64,000 nucleotides of DNA, taken from the sequence record PP434429, one strand, 5' to 3'. Positions 2,520 to 30,686 of this stretch are shown piece after piece (within the stretch, counting starts at the first letter, position 1; every line of letters starts with the position of its first letter). Position numbers and translations under genes: made by a program. The notes beneath the pieces are model-generated. The model made no database searches and was not told where the DNA came from. It worked only from the letters and a program-made list of their open reading frames with translations. Source of the stretch: Escherichia phage LH01.

Positions 2520-2840
2520 TTACGCTGTGAAGATTTTATCCCACATCGCAACAACTGCATCTCGGTTATACTTCTTCCATACCGCTTCAGCACGTTTAAC
2601 TCGAGCTTCGTATGTGTCAGTGAATTCTAATACAGCTTTTGTGTAAAGCGCAACTACTTCTTTCTTAGGAGTAGAGGAATCAATTTCTACACGCACAGTA
2701 TCTGGGTCGTATTCGAATGTCGCATGAGGATAATCCTTAAAAACTAACTGGATTACAGGGACACCTTTAGAGATGGCTTCAATAGAACTATTCTCTACCG
2801 TACCTGTGTCAGGACACGTATTGATAAGTGCTTTAGCTGT
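2520..2840 (-). pseudogene. C-terminal glycosyltransferase fragment in alternate frame (continuation of 2795..3619)
   Basis: 106 sense codons ending at TAA 2520-2522 with no ATG/GTG/TTG near the 5' end; encodes ...VENSSIEAISKGVPVIQLVF..., a GT-B C-terminal signature; overlaps the upstream ORF in a different frame over about 2798-2840. Confidence 0.5.
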
Positions 2841-3619
2841 TTAAGACGTTCCATGATTTCACTGTGTGGAGCATCAATAATAACAGGATACTTAGCCGGT
2901 GGTGCCCATTTACTAGGACAGTATCCTACACCATTTTCGCCTAGTGCTTTAATCGCTTCAAGAGCAACATCAGTACGACGCATTTTAGTGTCATAACGTT
3001 GTGCACTAATAATCAGATCAGTCGCCGGAAGAACTTCAGGTTTATCATTCAAACAAATAACCGGATAATCTTCGGCTTCAAACAACGGATTTGCTCGCCA
3101 ATAATCATAATCAATTTTGTCAGTCAGACCTGAAGTCATATAACAATATTTGCGTTCAAATTCACGGAAGGCTTTAGTAGGAGCATAACTCTTACCACCG
3201 TTCTTATGAATTTGAATAGTCTGGTCCCAAATTTGAACAATGCCACGAGACACCGGTTCAAATGGTGTTGCCATAAAATTCTTATGAACTTTAGAGAGAC
3301 CCGCGTCTTTAATTGCCTGAACGGTTAGTTTGGTCGGTTCCATTGTAACAACGAAATCGTACTCATTAATGCCGGCTAGTTCAACAATCTTACGAGCCAT
3401 AGTATAACTCATACCTAGACTGAATTTAGTCAGATGACCAACAGGATGATGATTAACCTTCCAGTCACCAAACGTGTCATTATCAAAGCCGATATAATCA
3501 ATATCAGCACCGATGGACACAAGATATTTCAATACATTTAAATGTACTGCTTCAAGACCACCTTGTACACGTTCTGGGTTAAATGGGACTGCGCGAGATG
3601 GGATAAACATAACTTTCAT
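2795..3619 (-). CDS. glycosyltransferase-like protein, N-terminal portion of a frame-interrupted gene
   Basis: 274-aa ORF, ATG at 3619; Rossmann-like half typical of GT-B enzymes; frame terminates at TAG 2795 while the C-terminal GT motif continues in another frame. Confidence 0.55.
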   Translation of the reverse strand: MKVMFIPSRAVPFNPERVQGGLEAVHLNVLKYLVSIGADIDYIGFDNDTFGDWKVNHHPVGHLTKFSLGMSYTMARKIVELAGINEYDFVVTMEPTKLTVQAIKDAGLSKVHKNFMATPFEPVSRGIVQIWDQTIQIHKNGGKSYAPTKAFREFERKYCYMTSGLTDKIDYDYWRANPLFEAEDYPVICLNDKPEVLPATDLIISAQRYDTKMRRTDVALEAIKALGENGVGYCPSKWAPPAKYPVIIDAPHSEIMERLKQLKHLSIRVLTQVR

Positions 3620-24137: not shown

Positions 24138-24686
24138 TTAACGAGCCCATTTGATGATTTCTGTAATCAAACCATTACGTTCGCTTGCATTAAATCCTAT
24201 AACTTTGTTAGCACCATCATGATTAAGTAATTGATATGTTTGGATTTTGTTATGAATTGCAAACTCTTCAAAATGTGAAATGACTGTATTAAAACCGAAT
24301 GAAGACAAAGTAATAAGGTCGTCTTCAAAACTTTCAGTCATTTCGTTACGTGTTAAAATAATTGTGAACACATCATGGTTTTGGCAAAGACGAACATAGT
24401 CCTGTTCATAAACGTCAAGAACCGAGTCCGCATCTTGTCGAATACGCCCATAAACCCAGTTACTAATATATCCACGGTCTAACAGATAAATCTTAGTAGG
24501 GTCTAAATAATTCAACATCGTTTCGAAACAGCCAACTTCATTTCGAGACTTAACATCGAAACGCCCATCAACTGTTCGTTTAGGGAAATCAATCTTTACA
24601 TATCTTTCACTAATTTCCATTATGTCATTAATGAAAGTTGTTTTACCAGCATTATCTGGGCCGTCTACTAAAATAATTTTAGCCAT
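24138..24686 (-). CDS. P-loop nucleoside-monophosphate kinase, thymidylate-kinase-like
   Basis: 182-aa ORF; Walker A GPDNAGKTT and a DRGYIS segment resembling the TMPK DRY motif; ATG lies 1 nt after the upstream stop. Confidence 0.6.
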   Translation of the reverse strand: MAKIILVDGPDNAGKTTFINDIMEISERYVKIDFPKRTVDGRFDVKSRNEVGCFETMLNYLDPTKIYLLDRGYISNWVYGRIRQDADSVLDVYEQDYVRLCQNHDVFTIILTRNEMTESFEDDLITLSSFGFNTVISHFEEFAIHNKIQTYQLLNHDGANKVIGFNASERNGLITEIIKWAR

Positions 24687-24687
24687 T

Positions 24688-25587
24688 TTATTCCTCGATT
24701 ACGACATCTTCGTATTTAGGTATATTATACGGTGAAGAAATTAAAGCATTAAAGTAGATGAACTCACCAAGACCTGGATGGAATACTTCTTCAGGATTTT
24801 CGAAATATTGAATTTTCGGACGTCCTTTAAGAATTTGATAGTACTCAGTTTTAGTTGGTTTAAAAATTCGAATCAGCGCTTCTTCAGGATACTTATTTCT
24901 GTCGAAGCTATTATTTGGATCGGTTATATAAAGCGGTTGACCTAATTGAATTGCACATTCAACCACTTGTTCAAAACGATAACATGGGTCACTAATTCGA
25001 AATGGATGAAAAATACCATCTAGATGAATAGGAGCCAAATCACCTACAAGACGCTGCATGATGGAAGGACGTATAACTTTCTGAGTTACGATAATCTTAT
25101 TACCATCTGCACCGGCGTTAACCAGCACTTCTTTTTGACGTTCATTCAACACAGTAGTTTGAAGTGAACGATTAACCGACAACATATCGGTTTTTAAGAA
25201 TTCGTCAATATAAAAACGTGGTTTATTAGGGTCTGCCGTGATATTGAAATTGAATTCTACATCAAAAGCGCCGTCATATCCAGTGATATCTGTTATTAGA
25301 AAATCACAATCATAATAAGCAATTAATGAATCAACCACAAATTCATTTTCAGACCAGAAATATTTACGAGTGTTATACGCGTTATCTTTATACCATAATG
25401 GAACAAACTTAAATTCTGGGAAAAGACGTTCACATTCTTTAATATCAGATGCATTACGTGGATATGTAATCACATCACCCGGATTAGCACGGTGCAAATG
25501 AAGTTGGAAGTTGCCATCCTTAAGGATAGCATACTGTCCAGTTTCATAAGACCGCATACTCAAGATAGGTACGCGGAAAATAGCCAT
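24688..25587 (-). CDS. hypothetical protein translationally coupled to gene 42 (candidate DNA-modification enzyme)
   Basis: 299-aa ORF whose ATG overlaps the gene 42 stop (TAATG); occupies the locus where T4 has beta-gt; no recognisable motif. Confidence 0.55.
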   Translation of the reverse strand: MAIFRVPILSMRSYETGQYAILKDGNFQLHLHRANPGDVITYPRNASDIKECERLFPEFKFVPLWYKDNAYNTRKYFWSENEFVVDSLIAYYDCDFLITDITGYDGAFDVEFNFNITADPNKPRFYIDEFLKTDMLSVNRSLQTTVLNERQKEVLVNAGADGNKIIVTQKVIRPSIMQRLVGDLAPIHLDGIFHPFRISDPCYRFEQVVECAIQLGQPLYITDPNNSFDRNKYPEEALIRIFKPTKTEYYQILKGRPKIQYFENPEEVFHPGLGEFIYFNALISSPYNIPKYEDVVIEE

Positions 25588-26303
25588 TAGTCAAGGAATC
25601 CTTTAACATAATCAAAATCACGTTCAAACACATGGGCACTTACCATGGTATGAGTATAATCACCAACTTCTACACCACATTCGTTAGCGATATAATGAAG
25701 TAATTTTCCTTGGAGATAAAAATCCAACTGCATAACAACAGCACAGTTCTGAGAACGCATATGACAGTGGGTATAAAGCTTACCATCACGAATATAATAA
25801 GTTACTGAGTCAGTACATGGATATTCAAGTGTTTCGTCCGAATCAAGCAAAGCCTGATCAGAACTTTCTAGAATTTGGAACACAACTCTTCGGGAGTTAG
25901 GCTTCTCTTTAAGTTCTTTTAGAAGAGCTGGTAATTGGGCCGCAATGCGAGGACCATAGAAAGTGTTGAAGTTCGCCGGCAAAACATCTGATTTTGGTTT
26001 AGAAATAAATTTAGCGACATTAGGATATGCCTTAAACGCTTCTTCTGCGTTGGTACCACCAGAAATCATAAACTTCCAGAAGTCTTCGGCATATTCATAA
26101 GAGATGCGGTTAATACGTGGGTCGGTCATTTTGAATGATGATGGAGTGTCAACAACTACTGTCATAGACCCAATTTCATTACAACGTCCAATACGAGAAT
26201 CAGTTACGAATTCGGGGTTTTCTAAAATTTCACGATTGACTGCTTTAAATGCGGTTTGAAAATCTGCGGCTTTGATATATTTCATTGTGTTATGTTTTCC
26301 CAT
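25587..26303 (-). CDS. 42: dCMP hydroxymethylase (thymidylate-synthase fold)
   Basis: 238-aa ORF; TS-like catalytic region EYPCTDS...HMRSQN with Asp where TS has Asn (QLDFY) by my alignment; position between uvsX and 43. Confidence 0.65.
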   Translation of the reverse strand: MGKHNTMKYIKAADFQTAFKAVNREILENPEFVTDSRIGRCNEIGSMTVVVDTPSSFKMTDPRINRISYEYAEDFWKFMISGGTNAEEAFKAYPNVAKFISKPKSDVLPANFNTFYGPRIAAQLPALLKELKEKPNSRRVVFQILESSDQALLDSDETLEYPCTDSVTYYIRDGKLYTHCHMRSQNCAVVMQLDFYLQGKLLHYIANECGVEVGDYTHTMVSAHVFERDFDYVKGFLD

Positions 26304-26345: not shown

Positions 26346-26585
26346 TTATTTGAATTTCTTGGCAATGTTGATATAACGTAAAGCTTCAGAATCTATACTT
26401 CCAAGAACACTATGAAGGAATGCATCAGTGTAGTATTCCAATTGAACAGGTTCTTTAATCACTTTAGCCGCTTTGGTTTCAAACAGGCCCATAAGGGCCT
26501 TTTTAAGAATTTGTTCGTTAGTGTTCAGTTTCATAGTCAAAATCTCTTTGTTAAGTTTATAATTAAAACTTTTTCTAGAAATCAT
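26346..26585 (-). CDS. hypothetical small protein
   Basis: 79-aa ORF from the track. Confidence 0.35.
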   Translation of the reverse strand: MISRKSFNYKLNKEILTMKLNTNEQILKKALMGLFETKAAKVIKEPVQLEYYTDAFLHSVLGSIDSEALRYINIAKKFK

Positions 26586-27751
26586 TCCGGGTACCTCAAA
26601 GCGTCATCAGAGTTAGTTATATCAATAATAGATATGGAGTTTTCTGCTAACCCGTTTTTAGATAATTGACGTTTATAATACCTTTCACAATATGTACACG
26701 TTGACCCACAGATTTCATTAGCACAATCAAAATCTGGATGTCTGAACCACCTTTTTTCTAAAAAGCCATCTAACAAAGAGGTTTCAATATTTACTGTATG
26801 TGAAAACTCAGTCTCATTTTCAAGAGTGAAAATAGTCTCTAAAGGCTTCCACAGTTCTAACAAATTACCTTCAAACTTTTCAGAAGCGTATGCTTCAAGA
26901 ACTTTCAAAATGTAGTCTGTGCTACCTGTACGTCCTGAAACTTTGAATTGAGTGATACCAATATCATTATAAAGTTTCAAATCTTGAGGACGAACAAAAC
27001 GAGTTCTCAACCAGTTAAATGGGTCTGTATCACGAGCTTTAATGCAGTGTTGCATTGGATATCCATTTAAGGATTTAGCATCATCAGCTGTAACATCAGT
27101 ACTATGGAAAATATAGCAAGAGTCACGATAACTGCAATGTGTTGTATACCCTTTACCAGCATTAGAACAGAACTCATTTACAAGAACTTCAAATATTATA
27201 TTGTTCTTATTGCAAAACTCTGCTGCACGCTTCAGGAAAGAAACTGAACGGTTCTTATGAATTCCACAGCAGACCTTTTTGATATTGTATTGGTCATGTA
27301 AGTATTTTATTTGAGTTACAGCATCGACATGTAGAATTGTTGAAACTTCAATCTCAATGTCTTTATTGACTTCACGAACAATTTCCATAACAACAGGGTT
27401 AGCGATAGTAATACGCCATACGCCTATTGACCAAAGATACTGAACATAATCCTGAATAGCTTTCTTCTTCCACTCGACTAGTTCTCTTTTTGAACCAGGA
27501 TTTATCGTGTTGAGTGTATAGTTAAAGCAAATACCTAATTCGTTACAACGTTTAACGTAATCTTCTAACATCTTTTTGTCAACGTCAGGAAGCCTAAAAT
27601 CAGGTCTGGCTGCTACAAAAGCCATTTCTCTTGTAGAGCCGTATACTTCGTTTATCAAGCTGTTAGGATAAGTTTTATTGAGCTCTACGATTTTATCAAG
27701 AAGAGCTAAATCAAAATTCGTTCCGATTTTAAAAGTATTCATTTTTTGCAT
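26582..27751 (-). CDS. Cys-rich protein of unknown function (candidate modification enzyme)
   Basis: 389-aa ORF; C-terminal CGSTCTYC (CxxxCxxC) plus further conserved-looking Cys; no confident family call. Confidence 0.55.
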   Translation of the reverse strand: MQKMNTFKIGTNFDLALLDKIVELNKTYPNSLINEVYGSTREMAFVAARPDFRLPDVDKKMLEDYVKRCNELGICFNYTLNTINPGSKRELVEWKKKAIQDYVQYLWSIGVWRITIANPVVMEIVREVNKDIEIEVSTILHVDAVTQIKYLHDQYNIKKVCCGIHKNRSVSFLKRAAEFCNKNNIIFEVLVNEFCSNAGKGYTTHCSYRDSCYIFHSTDVTADDAKSLNGYPMQHCIKARDTDPFNWLRTRFVRPQDLKLYNDIGITQFKVSGRTGSTDYILKVLEAYASEKFEGNLLELWKPLETIFTLENETEFSHTVNIETSLLDGFLEKRWFRHPDFDCANEICGSTCTYCERYYKRQLSKNGLAENSISIIDITNSDDALRYPE

Positions 27752-27797: not shown

Positions 27798-28184
27798 TTA
27801 TAGATTCGGTTTATATGATTTAAATGTTTCGAATTCGCCTTTATTCATAAGAGCTTTGAATTCGTCAGGACGCATAGCTTTGTCGTCGATAATCCAATCA
27901 TATACTGGTTTATGTGTTAGCAAATTATGGTACTTCAAGCCAATGTTTGCCAAGTTCTGAATCAGACTTGGGAGAATGTCAATTGCTATACGACCAGGAC
28001 CTACTGACTTCATACCACGAGCAGTGTAAAGCGTTATGGTATGCCCTGCATCATACAGGGCATTAATGGCAGACACCATTTCGACGTCTGGTTTGAAGTT
28101 CACGTAATCACGATTGTTATTCCACTCTGTTATACAATCATCGACATCAAAACAAAGATTAAGCATGTTTTCTACACGGTGCAT
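27798..28184 (-). CDS. HAD-superfamily phosphatase (small, KdsC-like size)
   Basis: start at ATG for MHRVENMLNLCFDVDDCIT (HAD motif I DxDx[T/C]); later LYTARG and DWIIDDKA motifs; ATG overlaps the upstream stop. Confidence 0.6.
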   Translation of the reverse strand: MHRVENMLNLCFDVDDCITEWNNNRDYVNFKPDVEMVSAINALYDAGHTITLYTARGMKSVGPGRIAIDILPSLIQNLANIGLKYHNLLTHKPVYDWIIDDKAMRPDEFKALMNKGEFETFKSYKPNL

Positions 28185-29869
28185 TAGATTCGTTCCCATT
28201 GATGAGTGATATCGCCACCGATTGGACGATAGGAAACACCAGTTTCTTTATCAGTTAGTACCCATTTACCAGGATTTTTTGTAATCAGAGTAGCCGTTAC
28301 AGGTTCTGCTACGTCATAACTAATAGAGCCGTCTTGAAGTACACGGCCCATGTTGCGTAATTGCTTAGTCAGAAGTTCCATACCTTTATAATATGCGGCT
28401 ACCGCTTTAAGTGGATTATTCTTGAAATAACCACCTAATGCAATCCAGATAATTGCCACCGCCAAATGATGATACTCGTTAAACGAACTCATCTTTCCAT
28501 ATTTGTAAATTAATGGATTGATGTTAATAGTCACATTACAAGTTGTTTCATCAATAGTAAACTGTCCCCAGGTCGGATTAGCATTGAATTCATCATAACC
28601 TGAAACGGCATAAAGCACTTTAGCTTCATCATACAATTTTGGCCCGTAAATCTTGGTTTCGCCAAAATATCCACGAGGGTCGATAAACTTGACTTCGCCG
28701 TTATCAGTAATCATAGTATTACTGAAGTTCGGGTCACCATGAATAACAGAGTACTGTCCCTGAGAACGATTATGATAACGAATAAGGTGTTCTAAAGCTT
28801 GTTTCAGCATTGGCTTCAGACGTCCAATCTTAGTGTAGTTCACATGTGTGATTTTACCAAATGAATCAATCAATGGTTGAATACTTTCACAACGATCAAT
28901 AACTTTCGTATAGAATTCTTTAGTGAAATCACGACGAACAGTTTCAGGACTTACAAAATACGTGTCTGTGCTGAATTTCAGTGCATCTAAAATTGCATCA
29001 ACAATTTGTGGACGAGCAAGACTTGATTTGGATTTAATATATTCAAATGCCGGCTTACCTTTAATGCGTTCCATTTCAAAGTTATTTTCATTAACAGAAA
29101 CTAACTGAGGAACTGAATCTGATTTCACTTTCAAATACCACGAAATCTCATCTTTCTGAAGAGCTCGTCCCTGTTCGGTTAATGCGAATTTAGTTACAGT
29201 TTCTTCACCAATTTCAACTGCATTAAAACTACGATTAAGTTCACGAACTTCATGAGCTTTTTCAAGTTTAGGCATATCACCTAAATCAATTAGATTCATA
29301 AGCTCTGATTTATTGAATGCGCCGCTGTAAAGGAATTCTACGAAATCACGTCCTTTGCAGTATTCATGAATTTCCTCATCGGTAGAACCCATATAGAATT
29401 CCCAGTCTTTGAACTGATAAATTCCTACAACATTACCACCTGTTGAACCTACGTTAGTGATATTTTCACCGTCGAAATTATACCGACATTCGTCACCCTT
29501 AACATAGATTGCGTTAACATTCCAAGACCATGAACCAAAATCAGGAATAATATCACACCAGTTAACAATTACATTATGGCCATCTAAATCTTTGTGTAAT
29601 TTAGCAAGAGCATAAGCAGAACCATACGCTTCATCAACTGTACGAATAGTCACATTGAACCCTTCTTGCTCACAATAAGCTCGAACAGTTTCAGCAAATT
29701 TTGAATGAACTACTACAATAATTTCATCTGCGCCAAGGTCAGAATAAATTGTATACAAATTGCTCAGAATAGTGTCTTGTTTATAGTTAACAAGCACCTT
29801 AGGAATATGATGCGTTATTGGATACAAACGAGTTGCCAGTCCAGCACCAAGAATAACAGCTTTTTTCAT
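28184..29869 (-). CDS. bifunctional sugar-1-phosphate nucleotidyltransferase / sugar kinase (APH-ChoK-like)
   Basis: 561-aa ORF; N-terminus ILGAGLATRLYPIT...PKVLV (NTP-transferase signature); C-terminus VIHGDPNFSNTMI...FIDPRGYFG (Brenner HGD-N and DFG-like motifs of APH/choline-kinase fold). Confidence 0.75.
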   Translation of the reverse strand: MKKAVILGAGLATRLYPITHHIPKVLVNYKQDTILSNLYTIYSDLGADEIIVVVHSKFAETVRAYCEQEGFNVTIRTVDEAYGSAYALAKLHKDLDGHNVIVNWCDIIPDFGSWSWNVNAIYVKGDECRYNFDGENITNVGSTGGNVVGIYQFKDWEFYMGSTDEEIHEYCKGRDFVEFLYSGAFNKSELMNLIDLGDMPKLEKAHEVRELNRSFNAVEIGEETVTKFALTEQGRALQKDEISWYLKVKSDSVPQLVSVNENNFEMERIKGKPAFEYIKSKSSLARPQIVDAILDALKFSTDTYFVSPETVRRDFTKEFYTKVIDRCESIQPLIDSFGKITHVNYTKIGRLKPMLKQALEHLIRYHNRSQGQYSVIHGDPNFSNTMITDNGEVKFIDPRGYFGETKIYGPKLYDEAKVLYAVSGYDEFNANPTWGQFTIDETTCNVTININPLIYKYGKMSSFNEYHHLAVAIIWIALGGYFKNNPLKAVAAYYKGMELLTKQLRNMGRVLQDGSISYDVAEPVTATLITKNPGKWVLTDKETGVSYRPIGGDITHQWERI

Positions 29870-29910: not shown

Positions 29911-30054
29911 CTAGTTAAAGCATTCATACTTTGCTTGTAGTCCAATCATAGTCCATCCGATTATAAGAGTCGGAATCATTACTGGAGCCGTTAAGCTCCA
30001 GTAGATAGTCATGACAAGCATCAATAGTAAAAGTCCTATTGTTATTGCTTTCAT
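29911..30054 (-). CDS. small membrane protein
   Basis: 47-aa ORF below the track threshold (MKAITIGLLLLMLVMTIYW...); ATG overlaps the SIS gene stop (ATGA). Confidence 0.35.
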   Translation of the reverse strand: MKAITIGLLLLMLVMTIYWSLTAPVMIPTLIIGWTMIGLQAKYECFN

Positions 30055-30686
30055 TGCTCGCCTCGTAACATGGCACCTAGTGCACCGCCTGGATGGAACT
30101 TAAGGAAATCATTAGAGGTAAATCCACGTTCAGACGAAAGGTTGATAGCAAAAGTATCGATAAGCGCTAACAATAATGTAGTGGACATAGTCGGAGCCAG
30201 AGAATTCTCATCAACCTCTACTGCGATGCCTGTACAGAACGTATAATCAAAAAGAGCTTCGTATTCTTGTGGAATGTCTGGGTTACAATGCAACAGAATC
30301 TGTTTGACGTTCGGACGAATCATTTTAAGATGCTTAGCCACGCCTATCATTTCTTCAGTTTTACCAGAACGACTAATATGAATCAACACATCATTAGGCG
30401 CAATGAATCCTGCATCACCGTGAGAATAATGCCCAGTGTTCAAGTACATACTCGGGATACCGAGTGAAGCAAATGTCTCAGAAGCTTTAGTTGCAATATT
30501 AGCATTCTTACCAACACCTGTAATAATTACTCGGCTTTCATAATTACTAAGTCCAGGGCGTCGAAGAGTTTCTAGAATAGCATTATAACGAGCAGGGTTT
30601 TGACTAATTACTTTGGCCATAGCGGCCAAAGAAGAAGCTTGTTTTATGATTGCGTCAATAGCGATATTAATAGGAGTAGTTTTCAT
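30051..30686 (-). CDS. SIS-domain sugar-phosphate isomerase, KdsD/GutQ-type (single domain)
   Basis: 211-aa ORF; ITGVGKNANIATKA...HGDAG...ISRSGKTEE...APTMSTT...HPGGALG matches the arabinose-5-phosphate isomerase SIS pattern; no CBS domains. Confidence 0.75.
   Translation of the reverse strand: MKTTPINIAIDAIIKQASSLAAMAKVISQNPARYNAILETLRRPGLSNYESRVIITGVGKNANIATKASETFASLGIPSMYLNTGHYSHGDAGFIAPNDVLIHISRSGKTEEMIGVAKHLKMIRPNVKQILLHCNPDIPQEYEALFDYTFCTGIAVEVDENSLAPTMSTTLLLALIDTFAINLSSERGFTSNDFLKFHPGGALGAMLRGEQ

What the first reader, a model, noticed from the sequence alone, without database searches (positions are those of the whole stretch)
24688..25587. Uncharacterised 299-aa protein coupled to dCMP hydroxymethylase at the beta-gt locus
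Its ATG overlaps the gene 42 stop (TAATG), and its own stop is 1 nt before the ATG of a TMPK-like kinase. The three genes therefore form one translationally coupled unit: hydroxymethylase, unknown protein, dNMP kinase. Sitting exactly where T4 has beta-glucosyltransferase, it is the best candidate for the hmC sugar transferase or a modification accessory protein.
Basis: inference. Interest (0 to 1): 0.6.

Follow-up and report, generated by a model that had tools for sequence, protein, structure and literature searches.

The report
Putative first arabinosyltransferase for phage DNA
This gene encodes a small sugar-transferase-shaped protein that most likely attaches the first arabinose to the 5-hydroxycytosine (not hydroxymethylcytosine) of an RB69-like phage's DNA. 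Recent papers already propose this role for it, but nobody has shown it biochemically.

Summary
A 299-aa ORF lies on the minus strand at 24688..25587. Its ATG overlaps the upstream stop (TAATG), and its own stop lies 1 nt before the ATG of a TMPK-like kinase.

The window is a Mosigvirus. The protein is 99.3% identical to RB69 ORF047c+046c ("gp46:47"), which a 2026 NAR paper already predicts to be "arabinosyltransferase 1".

The upstream "gene 42" carries the 5-hydroxy-dCMP synthase signature (RSQN, where T4 gp42 has RSND). The base is therefore 5-hydroxycytosine. The protein is a positional analogue of T4 beta-gt, not a homologue.

Support for the first-transferase role:
- The ThyA-homolog-then-GT order is conserved in seven of the nine loci examined.
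- The GT and the kinase co-occur almost one-to-one (348 vs 343 phage genomes).
- About 135 genomes have this GT but lack the other arabinosyltransferase type.

Still open is whether the acceptor is DNA or the mononucleotide. I found natural GT-kinase and HAD-GT fusion proteins, which keep a pre-replicative route alive.

Verdict: real, but already known as a prediction.

The parts
24688..25587 (-). 299-aa GT-B-fold protein. Ortholog of RB69 ORF047c+046c (gp46:47), DLP3 gp79 and Thanatos TH1_063. Putative alpha-D-arabinofuranosyltransferase 1.
25587..26303 (-). 238-aa thymidylate-synthase-family enzyme. It is a 5-hydroxy-dCMP synthase (RB69 gp48 type), not a dCMP hydroxymethylase.
   Evidence: PF00303, E 2e-15. 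99% identical to RB69 gp48. 'MRSQN...LD' signature, i.e. Asn at ThyA-D169 and Asp at ThyA-N177. Activity of gp48 was shown experimentally in PMC13326640.
24138..24686 (-). 182-aa TMPK-like P-loop nucleotide kinase (RB69 gp45 type). Its substrate is unknown.
   Evidence: PHROG 761 'thymidylate kinase', E 6e-45. P-loop DGPDNAGKTT and an LDR motif. Present in 343 phage records against 348 for the GT, with matching genus counts. Homologous domains occur fused to the GT in metagenomic proteins.
25585..25589 (-). TAATG stop/start overlap between the ThyA homolog and the GT.
   Evidence: Overlap or near-abutment of these two genes recurs in Thanatos, DLP3, JS98, L005, L006 and L013.
24684..24690 (-). 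TAA-a-ATG junction between the GT and the kinase, preceded by a GAGGA Shine-Dalgarno.
26582..27751 (-). 389-aa peptidase-U32-family protein (RB69 gp50 type). Member of the same cluster; role unknown.
   Evidence: PF01136, E 7e-11. PHROG 5757. A homolog at E 3e-120 lies in the L012 cluster.
27798..28199 (-). 133-aa HAD phosphatase (RB69 gp51 / HY126 AfhF type). Donor-sugar pathway.
   Evidence: PHROG 1238. Function is as summarised for HY126 AfhF in PMC13326640.
28184..29869 (-). 561-aa bifunctional NTase-kinase (RB69 gp52:53 / HY126 AfhE type). It makes UDP-arabinofuranose.
   Evidence: PF00483, E 9e-10, plus weak kinase-family hits. PHROG 4098. Published role.
30051..30686 (-). 211-aa arabinose-5-phosphate isomerase (RB69 gp55 type).
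   Evidence: NCBIfam KpsF/GutQ, E 2e-32, and KdsD, E 1e-30.
2520..3619 (-). gp3-type GT4 glycosyltransferase ('arabinosyltransferase 2'). In this window it is frameshifted by a 1-nt deletion at about 2837-2840.
   Evidence: About 97% identical to PDB 9iqz (phage HY126 glycosyltransferase) up to about residue 262. 1100 nt here against 1101 nt in RB69, and 1301 against 1302 in all listed relatives.

Best explanation
The 299-aa protein is a compact, sequence-orphan GT-B glycosyltransferase. It installs the base-proximal alpha-D-arabinofuranose on the 5-hydroxyl of 5-hydroxycytosine, using UDP-arabinofuranose made by the neighbouring isomerase, NTase-kinase and HAD genes.

Inferred pathway: the upstream ThyA homolog hydroxylates dCMP to 5-hydroxy-dCMP. 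Kinases raise it to the triphosphate and the polymerase incorporates it. The GT then arabinosylates 5hoC in the duplex, as T4's alpha/beta-GTs do with hmC. GT4-type enzymes (gp3 type) extend the chain afterwards.

Shown here: the ORF and its junctions, orthology to RB69 gp46:47, the GT-B fold, the hydroxylase signature of the neighbour, and the synteny and co-occurrence. Shown by others: the 5hoC chemistry, the alpha linkage of the first sugar, and UDP-Araf synthesis. Inferred: that this protein is the first transferase, and that its acceptor is DNA.

For: Invariant residues: R197 follows the first strand of the C-domain. K246 and H270-P-G272 with E/D275 sit at a helix start. These are where GT-B enzymes bind the NDP. 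This is inference; I made no superposition.

Orthology: 99.3% to RB69 ORF047c+046c, 46% to DLP3 gp79, 47.5% to Thanatos TH1_063.

Synteny: the gene lies directly downstream of a ThyA homolog carrying the RSxN hydroxylase signature in the window, RB69, DLP3, Thanatos, JS98, L005, L006 and L013. In L004 a 200-aa unknown gene lies between the two.

Copy-number arithmetic: the gp3-type GT is found in only 211 phage records and is absent from the Klebsiella, Serratia, Enterobacter, Proteus and Shewanella phages that do carry the 299-aa GT (348 records). Thanatos has no gp3-type gene and is mono-arabinosylated. RB69 has one and is di-arabinosylated. DLP3 has two and is tri-arabinosylated.

Published prediction: 'arabinosyltransferase 1'. 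Later arabinoses are added on DNA in vitro, which gives a precedent for DNA-level transfer in this system.
Against: No activity has been demonstrated. Lee et al. report that individual DLP3 GTs, the gp79 ortholog included, gave no arabinosylation of 5hoC-containing DNA with UDP-Araf or UDP-Arap (data not shown). They state that their experiments cannot tell whether the first arabinosylation happens on the mononucleotide or on DNA.

The Thanatos ortholog did not glycosylate DNA, dCMP or dCTP, but none of those substrates carried the 5-OH.

The family is acidic (median pI 5.07; net charge -10 here), whereas T4 beta-GT has pI 9.05.

The GT co-occurs almost one-to-one with an extra TMPK-like kinase and is sometimes fused to it. 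A purely DNA-level enzyme does not obviously need that.

GT-B membership rests on a predicted structure only. Pfam, NCBIfam, a PDB profile search and hhalign against GT4-type phage GTs all found nothing.
Confidence: 0.55

Rival explanations
1. Pre-replicative, nucleotide-level glycosylation. The GT arabinosylates free 5-hydroxy-dCMP as it leaves the translationally coupled hydroxylase. The dedicated TMPK-like kinase then phosphorylates the bulky arabinosyl-5-hydroxy-dCMP, which the general gp1-type dNMP kinase may not accept. The polymerase incorporates the already glycosylated dCTP. Only the later arabinoses are added on DNA.
For: The hydroxylase-then-GT gene order is conserved, with the kinase always in the same operon. 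GT and kinase co-occur in 348 vs 343 phage records with matching genus counts, although these phages also keep a gp1-type dNMP kinase that already phosphorylates 5hodCMP. Eight divergent metagenomic clusters fuse the GT to a domain homologous to this kinase (hhalign 95.1%, E 3e-8), in both orders. The published assay on 5hoC-DNA was negative, and the authors say explicitly that the question is open. The protein is acidic. The N-terminal acceptor domain holds many invariant polar residues (S10-M-R-S13, K23-D-G-N26, R33, R74, D100, N115, Y126-I-D128), which suggests a defined small-molecule pocket.
Against: Expressing the hydroxylase with the gp1-type kinase is enough to put 5hoC into DNA, so a DNA-level acceptor is available. 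The T4 paradigm and the demonstrated DNA-level third arabinosylation both point the other way. HAD-GT fusions also exist, and the HAD step is not adjacent to the GT step. Fusion in this family therefore marks shared pathway membership, not necessarily consecutive catalysis. In most fusions the kinase P-loop reads GKD rather than GK(S/T), so the domain may not be catalytic. DLP3 gp77 acts on DNA and is also acidic (pI 5.7). Kinase order is not fixed relative to the GT.
Confidence: 0.22
2. The protein is a UDP-pentose pyrophosphorylase. It makes the activated sugar from UTP and pentose-1-phosphate, as reported in vitro for the Thanatos ortholog TH1_063, and does not transfer the sugar.
For: PMC12838424 reports formation of UDP-xylose from UTP and xylose-1-phosphate with purified TH1_063, but not with TH1_060 purified in parallel. 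TH1_063 is the ortholog: 47.5% identity and the same position after the ThyA homolog.
Against: The fold is GT-B, not the nucleotidyltransferase fold. There is no NTP_transferase Pfam match. The cluster already encodes a true NTase domain in the 561-aa protein (PF00483). Its HY126 ortholog AfhE is reported to be the UDP-D-arabinose pyrophosphorylase. Nucleotidyl transfer is not GT-B chemistry (my knowledge). The published control was a no-enzyme reaction, so a co-purifying E. coli uridylyltransferase is not excluded. On this reading, phages without a gp3-type GT would have no transferase at all.
Confidence: 0.04
3. The protein is a GT-B-fold enzyme or subunit that does not itself glycosylate the base. 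It could be a UDP-sugar-modifying enzyme of the UDP-GlcNAc 2-epimerase type, or a non-catalytic partner that presents 5hoC or the donor to another enzyme.
For: UDP-GlcNAc 2-epimerases score as well as MshA in Foldseek (E 2e-6 to 1e-5). The published third arabinosylation needed two GT proteins together, so cooperative GT pairs occur in this system. A degenerate homolog that has lost most invariant residues persists in Serratia phage PS2, next to genuine hmC glucosyltransferases.
Confidence: 0.08

Closest known systems
RB69 gp46:47 (ORF047c+ORF046c), DLP3 gp79 and Thanatos TH1_063: 'arabinosyltransferase 1' of arabinosyl-5-hydroxycytosine phages (PHROG 3891)
   Different: Nothing substantive. 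In this window the gene is one intact ORF, whereas the RB69 reference record splits it. The function is still a prediction in the papers I could read.
T4 beta-glucosyltransferase (b-gt)
   Same: It occupies the slot immediately downstream of the ThyA-family gene, between gene 42 and uvsX. It is a GT-B-class enzyme that decorates a C5 hydroxyl of a modified cytosine.
T4 DNA alpha-glucosyltransferase and retaining GT4-type enzymes (MshA, BshA, PimA, sucrose-phosphate synthase)
   Different: The protein is 50-100 residues shorter. There is no Pfam Glycos_transf_1 match and no EX7E motif; the family has HPGxxE/D instead. Identity in the structural alignments is only 7-12%.
gp3-type phage arabinosyltransferases (RB69 ORF003c, DLP3 gp76/gp77, HY126 GT, PDB 9iqz/9ir0)
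   Different: Unrelated at the sequence-profile level (hhalign probability 0.2%). They are encoded elsewhere, between rIIA and the topoisomerase gene. They are present in only 211 of the roughly 348 genomes. They are assigned to the second and third arabinoses, and were shown to act on DNA.

Membership tests
GT-B fold glycosyltransferase superfamily | Two Rossmann-like alpha/beta domains separated by a cleft | tested here: met
GT-B fold glycosyltransferase superfamily | NDP-sugar binding residues in the C-terminal domain: a basic residue after the first C-domain strand, and an acidic or His residue at the N-terminus of a helix for ribose and phosphate | tested here: inconclusive
   Invariant F196-R197-x-S199-D200, K246 and H270-P271-G272 with E/D275 fall on the expected elements. 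No residue-level superposition or ligand docking could be done with these tools.
GT-B fold glycosyltransferase superfamily | Catalyses glycosyl transfer from an NDP-sugar | not testable with these tools
   Published attempts were negative or uninformative.
CAZy GT4 / Pfam Glycos_transf_1 | Sequence match to the family profile | tested here: not met
   No Pfam hit at E<=0.1 and no NCBIfam hit. A family profile against all PDB sequences returns only a chance hit at E 0.34. hhalign against GT4-type phage arabinosyltransferases gives probability 0.2%.
CAZy GT4 / Pfam Glycos_transf_1 | EX7E motif in the C-terminal domain | tested here: not met
   The corresponding conserved segment reads H270-P-G-L-G-E275-F-I-Y-F-N-A-L-I. 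No second Glu follows seven residues on.
T4 beta-glucosyltransferase family | Homology to T4 b-gt | tested here: not met
T4 beta-glucosyltransferase family | Genomic position between the ThyA-family gene and uvsX | tested here: met
   T4 map compared with the window ORF map.
Arabinosyl-5-hydroxycytosine 'arabinosyltransferase 1' family (RB69 gp46:47 type) | Sequence orthology to RB69 gp46:47, DLP3 gp79 and TH1_063 | tested here: met
   99.3%, 45.9% and 47.5% identity over the full length. Locus tags verified. PHROG 3891, E 3e-156.
Arabinosyl-5-hydroxycytosine 'arabinosyltransferase 1' family (RB69 gp46:47 type) | Encoded next to a 5hodCMP synthase (ThyA homolog with Asn at the D169 position) | tested here: met
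   Window 'MRSQN' against T4 and PS2 'MRSND'. The same signature is seen in Thanatos, DLP3, L004, L005, L006 and L013.
Arabinosyl-5-hydroxycytosine 'arabinosyltransferase 1' family (RB69 gp46:47 type) | Co-occurrence with UDP-arabinofuranose synthesis genes (A5P isomerase, NTase-kinase, HAD) | tested here: met
   All are present in the window, and also in DLP3, RB69, JS98, L006, L012 and L013. Exception: L005 has none within 7 kb.
Arabinosyl-5-hydroxycytosine 'arabinosyltransferase 1' family (RB69 gp46:47 type) | Transfers the first arabinose to 5hoC | not testable with these tools
   This is only a prediction in the papers I could read. He et al. 2026 and Mahler et al. 2025 were not available.
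Sugar-1-phosphate nucleotidyltransferase (UDP-sugar pyrophosphorylase) | Nucleotidyltransferase fold and NTP_transferase profile match | tested here: not met
   The fold is GT-B and there is no PF00483/PF12804 hit. Those domains are in the neighbouring 561-aa protein.

The most novel reading that the evidence does not exclude
The first arabinose is added before replication, on the free nucleotide. The hydroxylase, the GT and a dedicated TMPK-like kinase would form a channelled 'glycosylated-dNTP' line: dCMP to 5-hydroxy-dCMP, then arabinosyl-5-hydroxy-dCMP, then the diphosphate. The phage polymerase would then polymerise a sugar-bearing dCTP. The recurrent GT-kinase fusion proteins found here would be the fossil of that coupling. 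This would be the first natural case of pre-replicative glycosylation of a DNA base.
Probability: 0.2. Interest if true: 0.75.

Novelty: already known. Interest (0 to 1): 0.35.

Why it matters
Arabinosyl-5-hydroxycytosine shields Mosigvirus-type phages from restriction enzymes, DNA glycosylases and some CRISPR systems. These phages are common candidates for therapy. The enzyme that puts the first sugar on the base is the one step of the pathway still without biochemical proof.

Identifying its true acceptor would decide whether this system copies T4 (sugar added to finished DNA) or works in a new way (sugar added to the nucleotide).

In practical terms, the family is a very small, sequence-orphan GT-B enzyme with only about 225 clusters among 1.84 billion representative proteins. 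It could be useful for making glycosylated DNA.

For this scan the finding is a correct rediscovery. It is not a new system.

Tried and rejected
1. Sequence-based assignment found nothing. I tried Pfam and NCBIfam, phmmer and a family profile against all PDB sequences (the only hit is a chance one at E 0.34), and hhalign against gp3-type GT4s and against T4 b-gt.
2. Homology to T4 beta-gt is rejected: the two genes share a position only.
3. 'Gene 42 = dCMP hydroxymethylase' is rejected on the D169N signature and 99% identity to RB69 gp48.
4. The solved 'phage HY126 glycosyltransferase' (9iqz) is not the ortholog. It belongs to the gp3-type gene at window 2520..3619.
5. I tried to read He et al. 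2026 (Nat Chem Biol) and Mahler et al. 2025 (Cell Host Microbe) by DOI and by PubMed id. Neither is held. Keyword searches for Afh and Aat gene names were unproductive. Either paper may hold experimental data on this protein that I could not see.
6. The promoter/terminator scan is uninformative: 12 sites against 12.3 expected, and no terminators.
7. The AFDB50 fold library was not available.
8. Direct phmmer searches, and locus-built HMMs of the kinase, HAD and ThyA families, largely failed to label the fused extensions. Pfam and profile-profile comparison were needed.
9. Net charge as a DNA-versus-nucleotide discriminator is only suggestive, because the DNA-acting DLP3 gp77 is also acidic.
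10. The start/stop overlap taken as special in itself is rejected. About a third of junctions in this window are equally tight.

Full report
**1. Observation**

The window holds a 299-aa, ATG-initiated ORF at 24688..25587 on the minus strand.
- On the coding strand, the upstream junction reads GACTAATGGCT. The TAA stop of the 238-aa ThyA-family gene (25587..26303) and the ATG share one base.
- The downstream junction reads GAGGAATAAAATG: stop, one base, then the ATG of a 182-aa P-loop protein (24138..24686).
- Tight junctions are common in this genome, however. In a rough gene set, 34 of 98 same-strand junctions overlap or lie within 5 nt. The overlap alone says little.
- A promoter/terminator scan of the region added nothing: 12 promoter-like sites against 12.3 expected, and no terminators.

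**2. What the locus is**

The 2.4-kb region is 98-99% identical to more than 150 Mosigvirus (RB69-like) genomes.
- The protein is 99-100% identical to 'hypothetical proteins' in those phages. It is 99.3% identical to RB69, where the reference record splits it into ORF047c and ORF046c.
- Lee et al. (NAR 2026, PMC13326640) state that this split is a sequencing error. They model 'gp46:47' as one protein and propose it as 'arabinosyltransferase 1'.
- The orthologs in DLP3 (gp79) and Shewanella phage Thanatos (TH1_063) were confirmed by locus tag.
- The finding is thus a rediscovery of a published prediction.

**3. The chemical premise has to be corrected**

Lee et al. showed by MS/MS and NMR that RB69 cytosines are beta-D-Araf-(1-3)-alpha-D-Araf linked by an ether bond to C5 of 5-hydroxy-dC. 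The base is not hydroxymethyl-dC.
- They also showed that RB69 gp48, a thymidylate-synthase homolog, is an FMN- and O2-dependent 5-hydroxy-dCMP synthase.
- Their diagnostic is Asn at the position of E. coli ThyA D169.
- The window's upstream gene is 99% identical to gp48. It reads 'MRSQN...LD', whereas T4 gp42 and the Serratia phage PS2 homolog read 'MRSND'.
- So 'gene 42 / dCMP hydroxymethylase' is wrong for this window.

**4. Fold**

No sequence method assigns the 299-aa protein to a family.
- Pfam and NCBIfam give nothing.
- PHROG 3891 is 'unknown function'.
- phmmer and a 37-sequence family profile find no solved relative.
- hhalign against the GT4-type phage arabinosyltransferases and against T4 b-gt gives probabilities of 0.2% and 0.1%.

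An AlphaFold2 model built on a diverse alignment is confident (pLDDT 93.8, pTM 0.88).
- Foldseek against the PDB puts the retaining GT4 enzyme MshA first (E 2e-6), followed by UDP-GlcNAc 2-epimerases and further GT4 enzymes.
- The protein is therefore a compact GT-B enzyme. It is structurally nearest to retaining GT4-type transferases, which fits the alpha linkage of the base-proximal arabinose.
- It fails the sequence criteria for GT4: no profile match and no EX7E motif.
- Invariant residues R197, K246, H270-P-G272 and E/D275 lie where GT-B enzymes bind the nucleotide. That placement is inferred from secondary structure only.

**5. Context and co-occurrence**

The window carries the whole published cluster:
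- a U32-family protein, a HAD phosphatase and an NTase-kinase;
- an arabinose-5-phosphate isomerase.

T4's gene order confirms that the GT occupies the b-gt slot.

Neighbourhoods of distant homologs (37-45% identity, metagenomic contigs) keep the ThyA-homolog, GT, roughly-180-aa-kinase order.
- The junctions overlap in L005 and L006. In L004 a 200-aa unknown gene lies between the ThyA homolog and the GT.
- All three proteins are homologous to the window's, and every ThyA homolog has the RSxN signature.
- In JS98 the kinase instead precedes the ThyA homolog. In seven of the nine loci examined the hydroxylase is followed directly by the GT. The kinase sits in the same operon, on either side of the pair.

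Across annotated phages the counts are:

| Protein | Phage records |
|---|---|
| 299-aa GT | 348 |
| TMPK-like kinase | 343 |
| gp3-type GT | 211 |

- The GT and the kinase show matching genus counts.
- The gp3-type GT is absent from the Klebsiella, Serratia, Enterobacter, Proteus and Shewanella phages that carry the 299-aa GT.
- Thanatos has no gp3-type gene and is mono-arabinosylated. RB69 has one and is di-arabinosylated. DLP3 has two and is tri-arabinosylated.
- The number of arabinoses therefore equals one plus the number of gp3-type genes. This is the strongest indirect argument that the 299-aa protein adds the first sugar.

**6. New observations bearing on mechanism**

An exhaustive profile search of 1.84 billion representative proteins finds only 225 family members. 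Among them are recurrent fusions.
- Seven mutually divergent clusters carry the GT followed by a roughly 200-aa domain with a TMPK-type P-loop (EGFDRIGKD/S). One cluster has the same domain in front of the GT.
- Seven clusters carry an N-terminal HAD phosphatase fused to the GT.
- Profile-profile comparison shows that the fused P-loop domain is homologous to the kinase next to the GT in the window (95.1%, E 3e-8, with the P-loop and DR motifs aligned).
- The fusion genes lie in the same kind of cluster, with an A5P isomerase, an NTase-kinase, a U32 protein or an RSQN-type ThyA homolog nearby.

These fusions tie the GT physically to both the nucleotide side and the sugar side of the pathway.

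**7. Mechanism and rivals**

*Best explanation (0.55).* This is the first alpha-arabinofuranosyltransferase. It acts on 5hoC after incorporation into DNA, as in T4 and as shown for the third arabinose.

*Main rival (0.22).* It acts on free 5-hydroxy-dCMP, and the dedicated kinase phosphorylates the glycosylated nucleotide.
- In favour: the extra kinase, which exists despite a functional gp1-type kinase; the fusions; the acidic protein (pI 5.13 against 9.05 for T4 beta-GT); and the negative published assay on 5hoC-DNA, whose authors call the question open.
- Against: 5hoC reaches DNA without the GT. HAD-GT fusions show that fusion need not mean consecutive steps. The P-loop in most fusions reads GKD. 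The DNA-acting gp77 is also acidic.

*Pyrophosphorylase (0.04).* A published claim holds that the Thanatos ortholog is a UDP-xylose pyrophosphorylase. This conflicts with the GT-B fold and with the true NTase encoded next door.

*Epimerase-like or non-catalytic role (0.08).* I cannot exclude this.

**8. Verdict**

However, the base chemistry was mis-assigned, the resemblance to beta-gt is positional only, and the assignment is already in the literature as a prediction. Biochemical proof and the identity of the acceptor remain open. Two primary papers that might settle this could not be read.

Noticed in passing
window 2520..3619 (-), deletion at about 2837-2840: The second, gp3-type arabinosyltransferase is frameshifted in this window. 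It is about 97% identical to the solved phage HY126 GT (PDB 9iqz). A 1-nt deletion in a short homopolymer (coding strand AAAA to AAA) truncates it at about residue 260 of 366. RB69 and all listed relatives have the extra base. This is either a homopolymer sequencing error or a genuine loss, in which case the DNA would be predicted to be mono-arabinosylated only.
   Followed up: yes
window 26582..27751 (-): The cluster contains a peptidase-U32-family protein (RB69 gp50 type), which the NAR paper labels only 'sugar or heterocycle reductase'. From my own knowledge, U32 members RlhA and TrhP are O2-independent C5-hydroxylases of cytidine and uridine in rRNA and tRNA; these correspond to refs 65 and 66 of that paper. 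The protein might therefore provide an anaerobic route to 5-hydroxycytosine for gut phages, whose flavin hydroxylase needs O2. A homolog at E 3e-120 sits in the distant L012 cluster.
   Followed up: partly
metagenomic proteins P0228, P0234, P0235, P0244, P0253, P0261, P0216, P0238 (GT plus kinase); P0139, P0149-P0151, P0162, P0166, P0219 (HAD plus GT); loci L012 6001-7725 and L013 6001-7650: Natural fusion proteins join this GT family to a TMPK-like domain (in either order) or to a HAD phosphatase. In most kinase fusions the P-loop reads GKD instead of GK(S/T).
   Followed up: yes
L005 5739-6293: In one distant locus a Flavodoxin_2-family (NAD(P)H-dependent FMN reductase-like) gene lies immediately upstream of the RSQN-type ThyA homolog, GT and kinase trio. 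That fits the flavin dependence of the hydroxylase. No isomerase or NTase genes occur within 7 kb, so that phage may use a host NDP-sugar.
   Followed up: no
L014 (Serratia phage PS2) 3501-4427: A degenerate homolog of the GT lies directly after a true hydroxymethylase-type gene 42 ('MRSND') and before two annotated hmC glucosyltransferases, with no TMPK-like kinase. The homology is solid (hhalign 99.2%, 20% identity), but most of the family's invariant residues are lost. It may be a relic or a repurposed protein. Serratia phage Muldoon has a similar structure (TM 0.74).
   Followed up: partly
L010 (phage JS98) 4273-6394: In Dhakavirus the TMPK-like kinase precedes the ThyA homolog (kinase, ThyA homolog, GT, each with 4-nt overlaps). 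The kinase's position in the operon is therefore not fixed.
   Followed up: yes
window 26346..26585 (-): A 79-aa ORF (PHROG 8601, unknown function; RB69 ORF049c type) lies between the U32 gene and the ThyA homolog and overlaps the U32 gene by 4 nt. No function is assigned anywhere.
   Followed up: no
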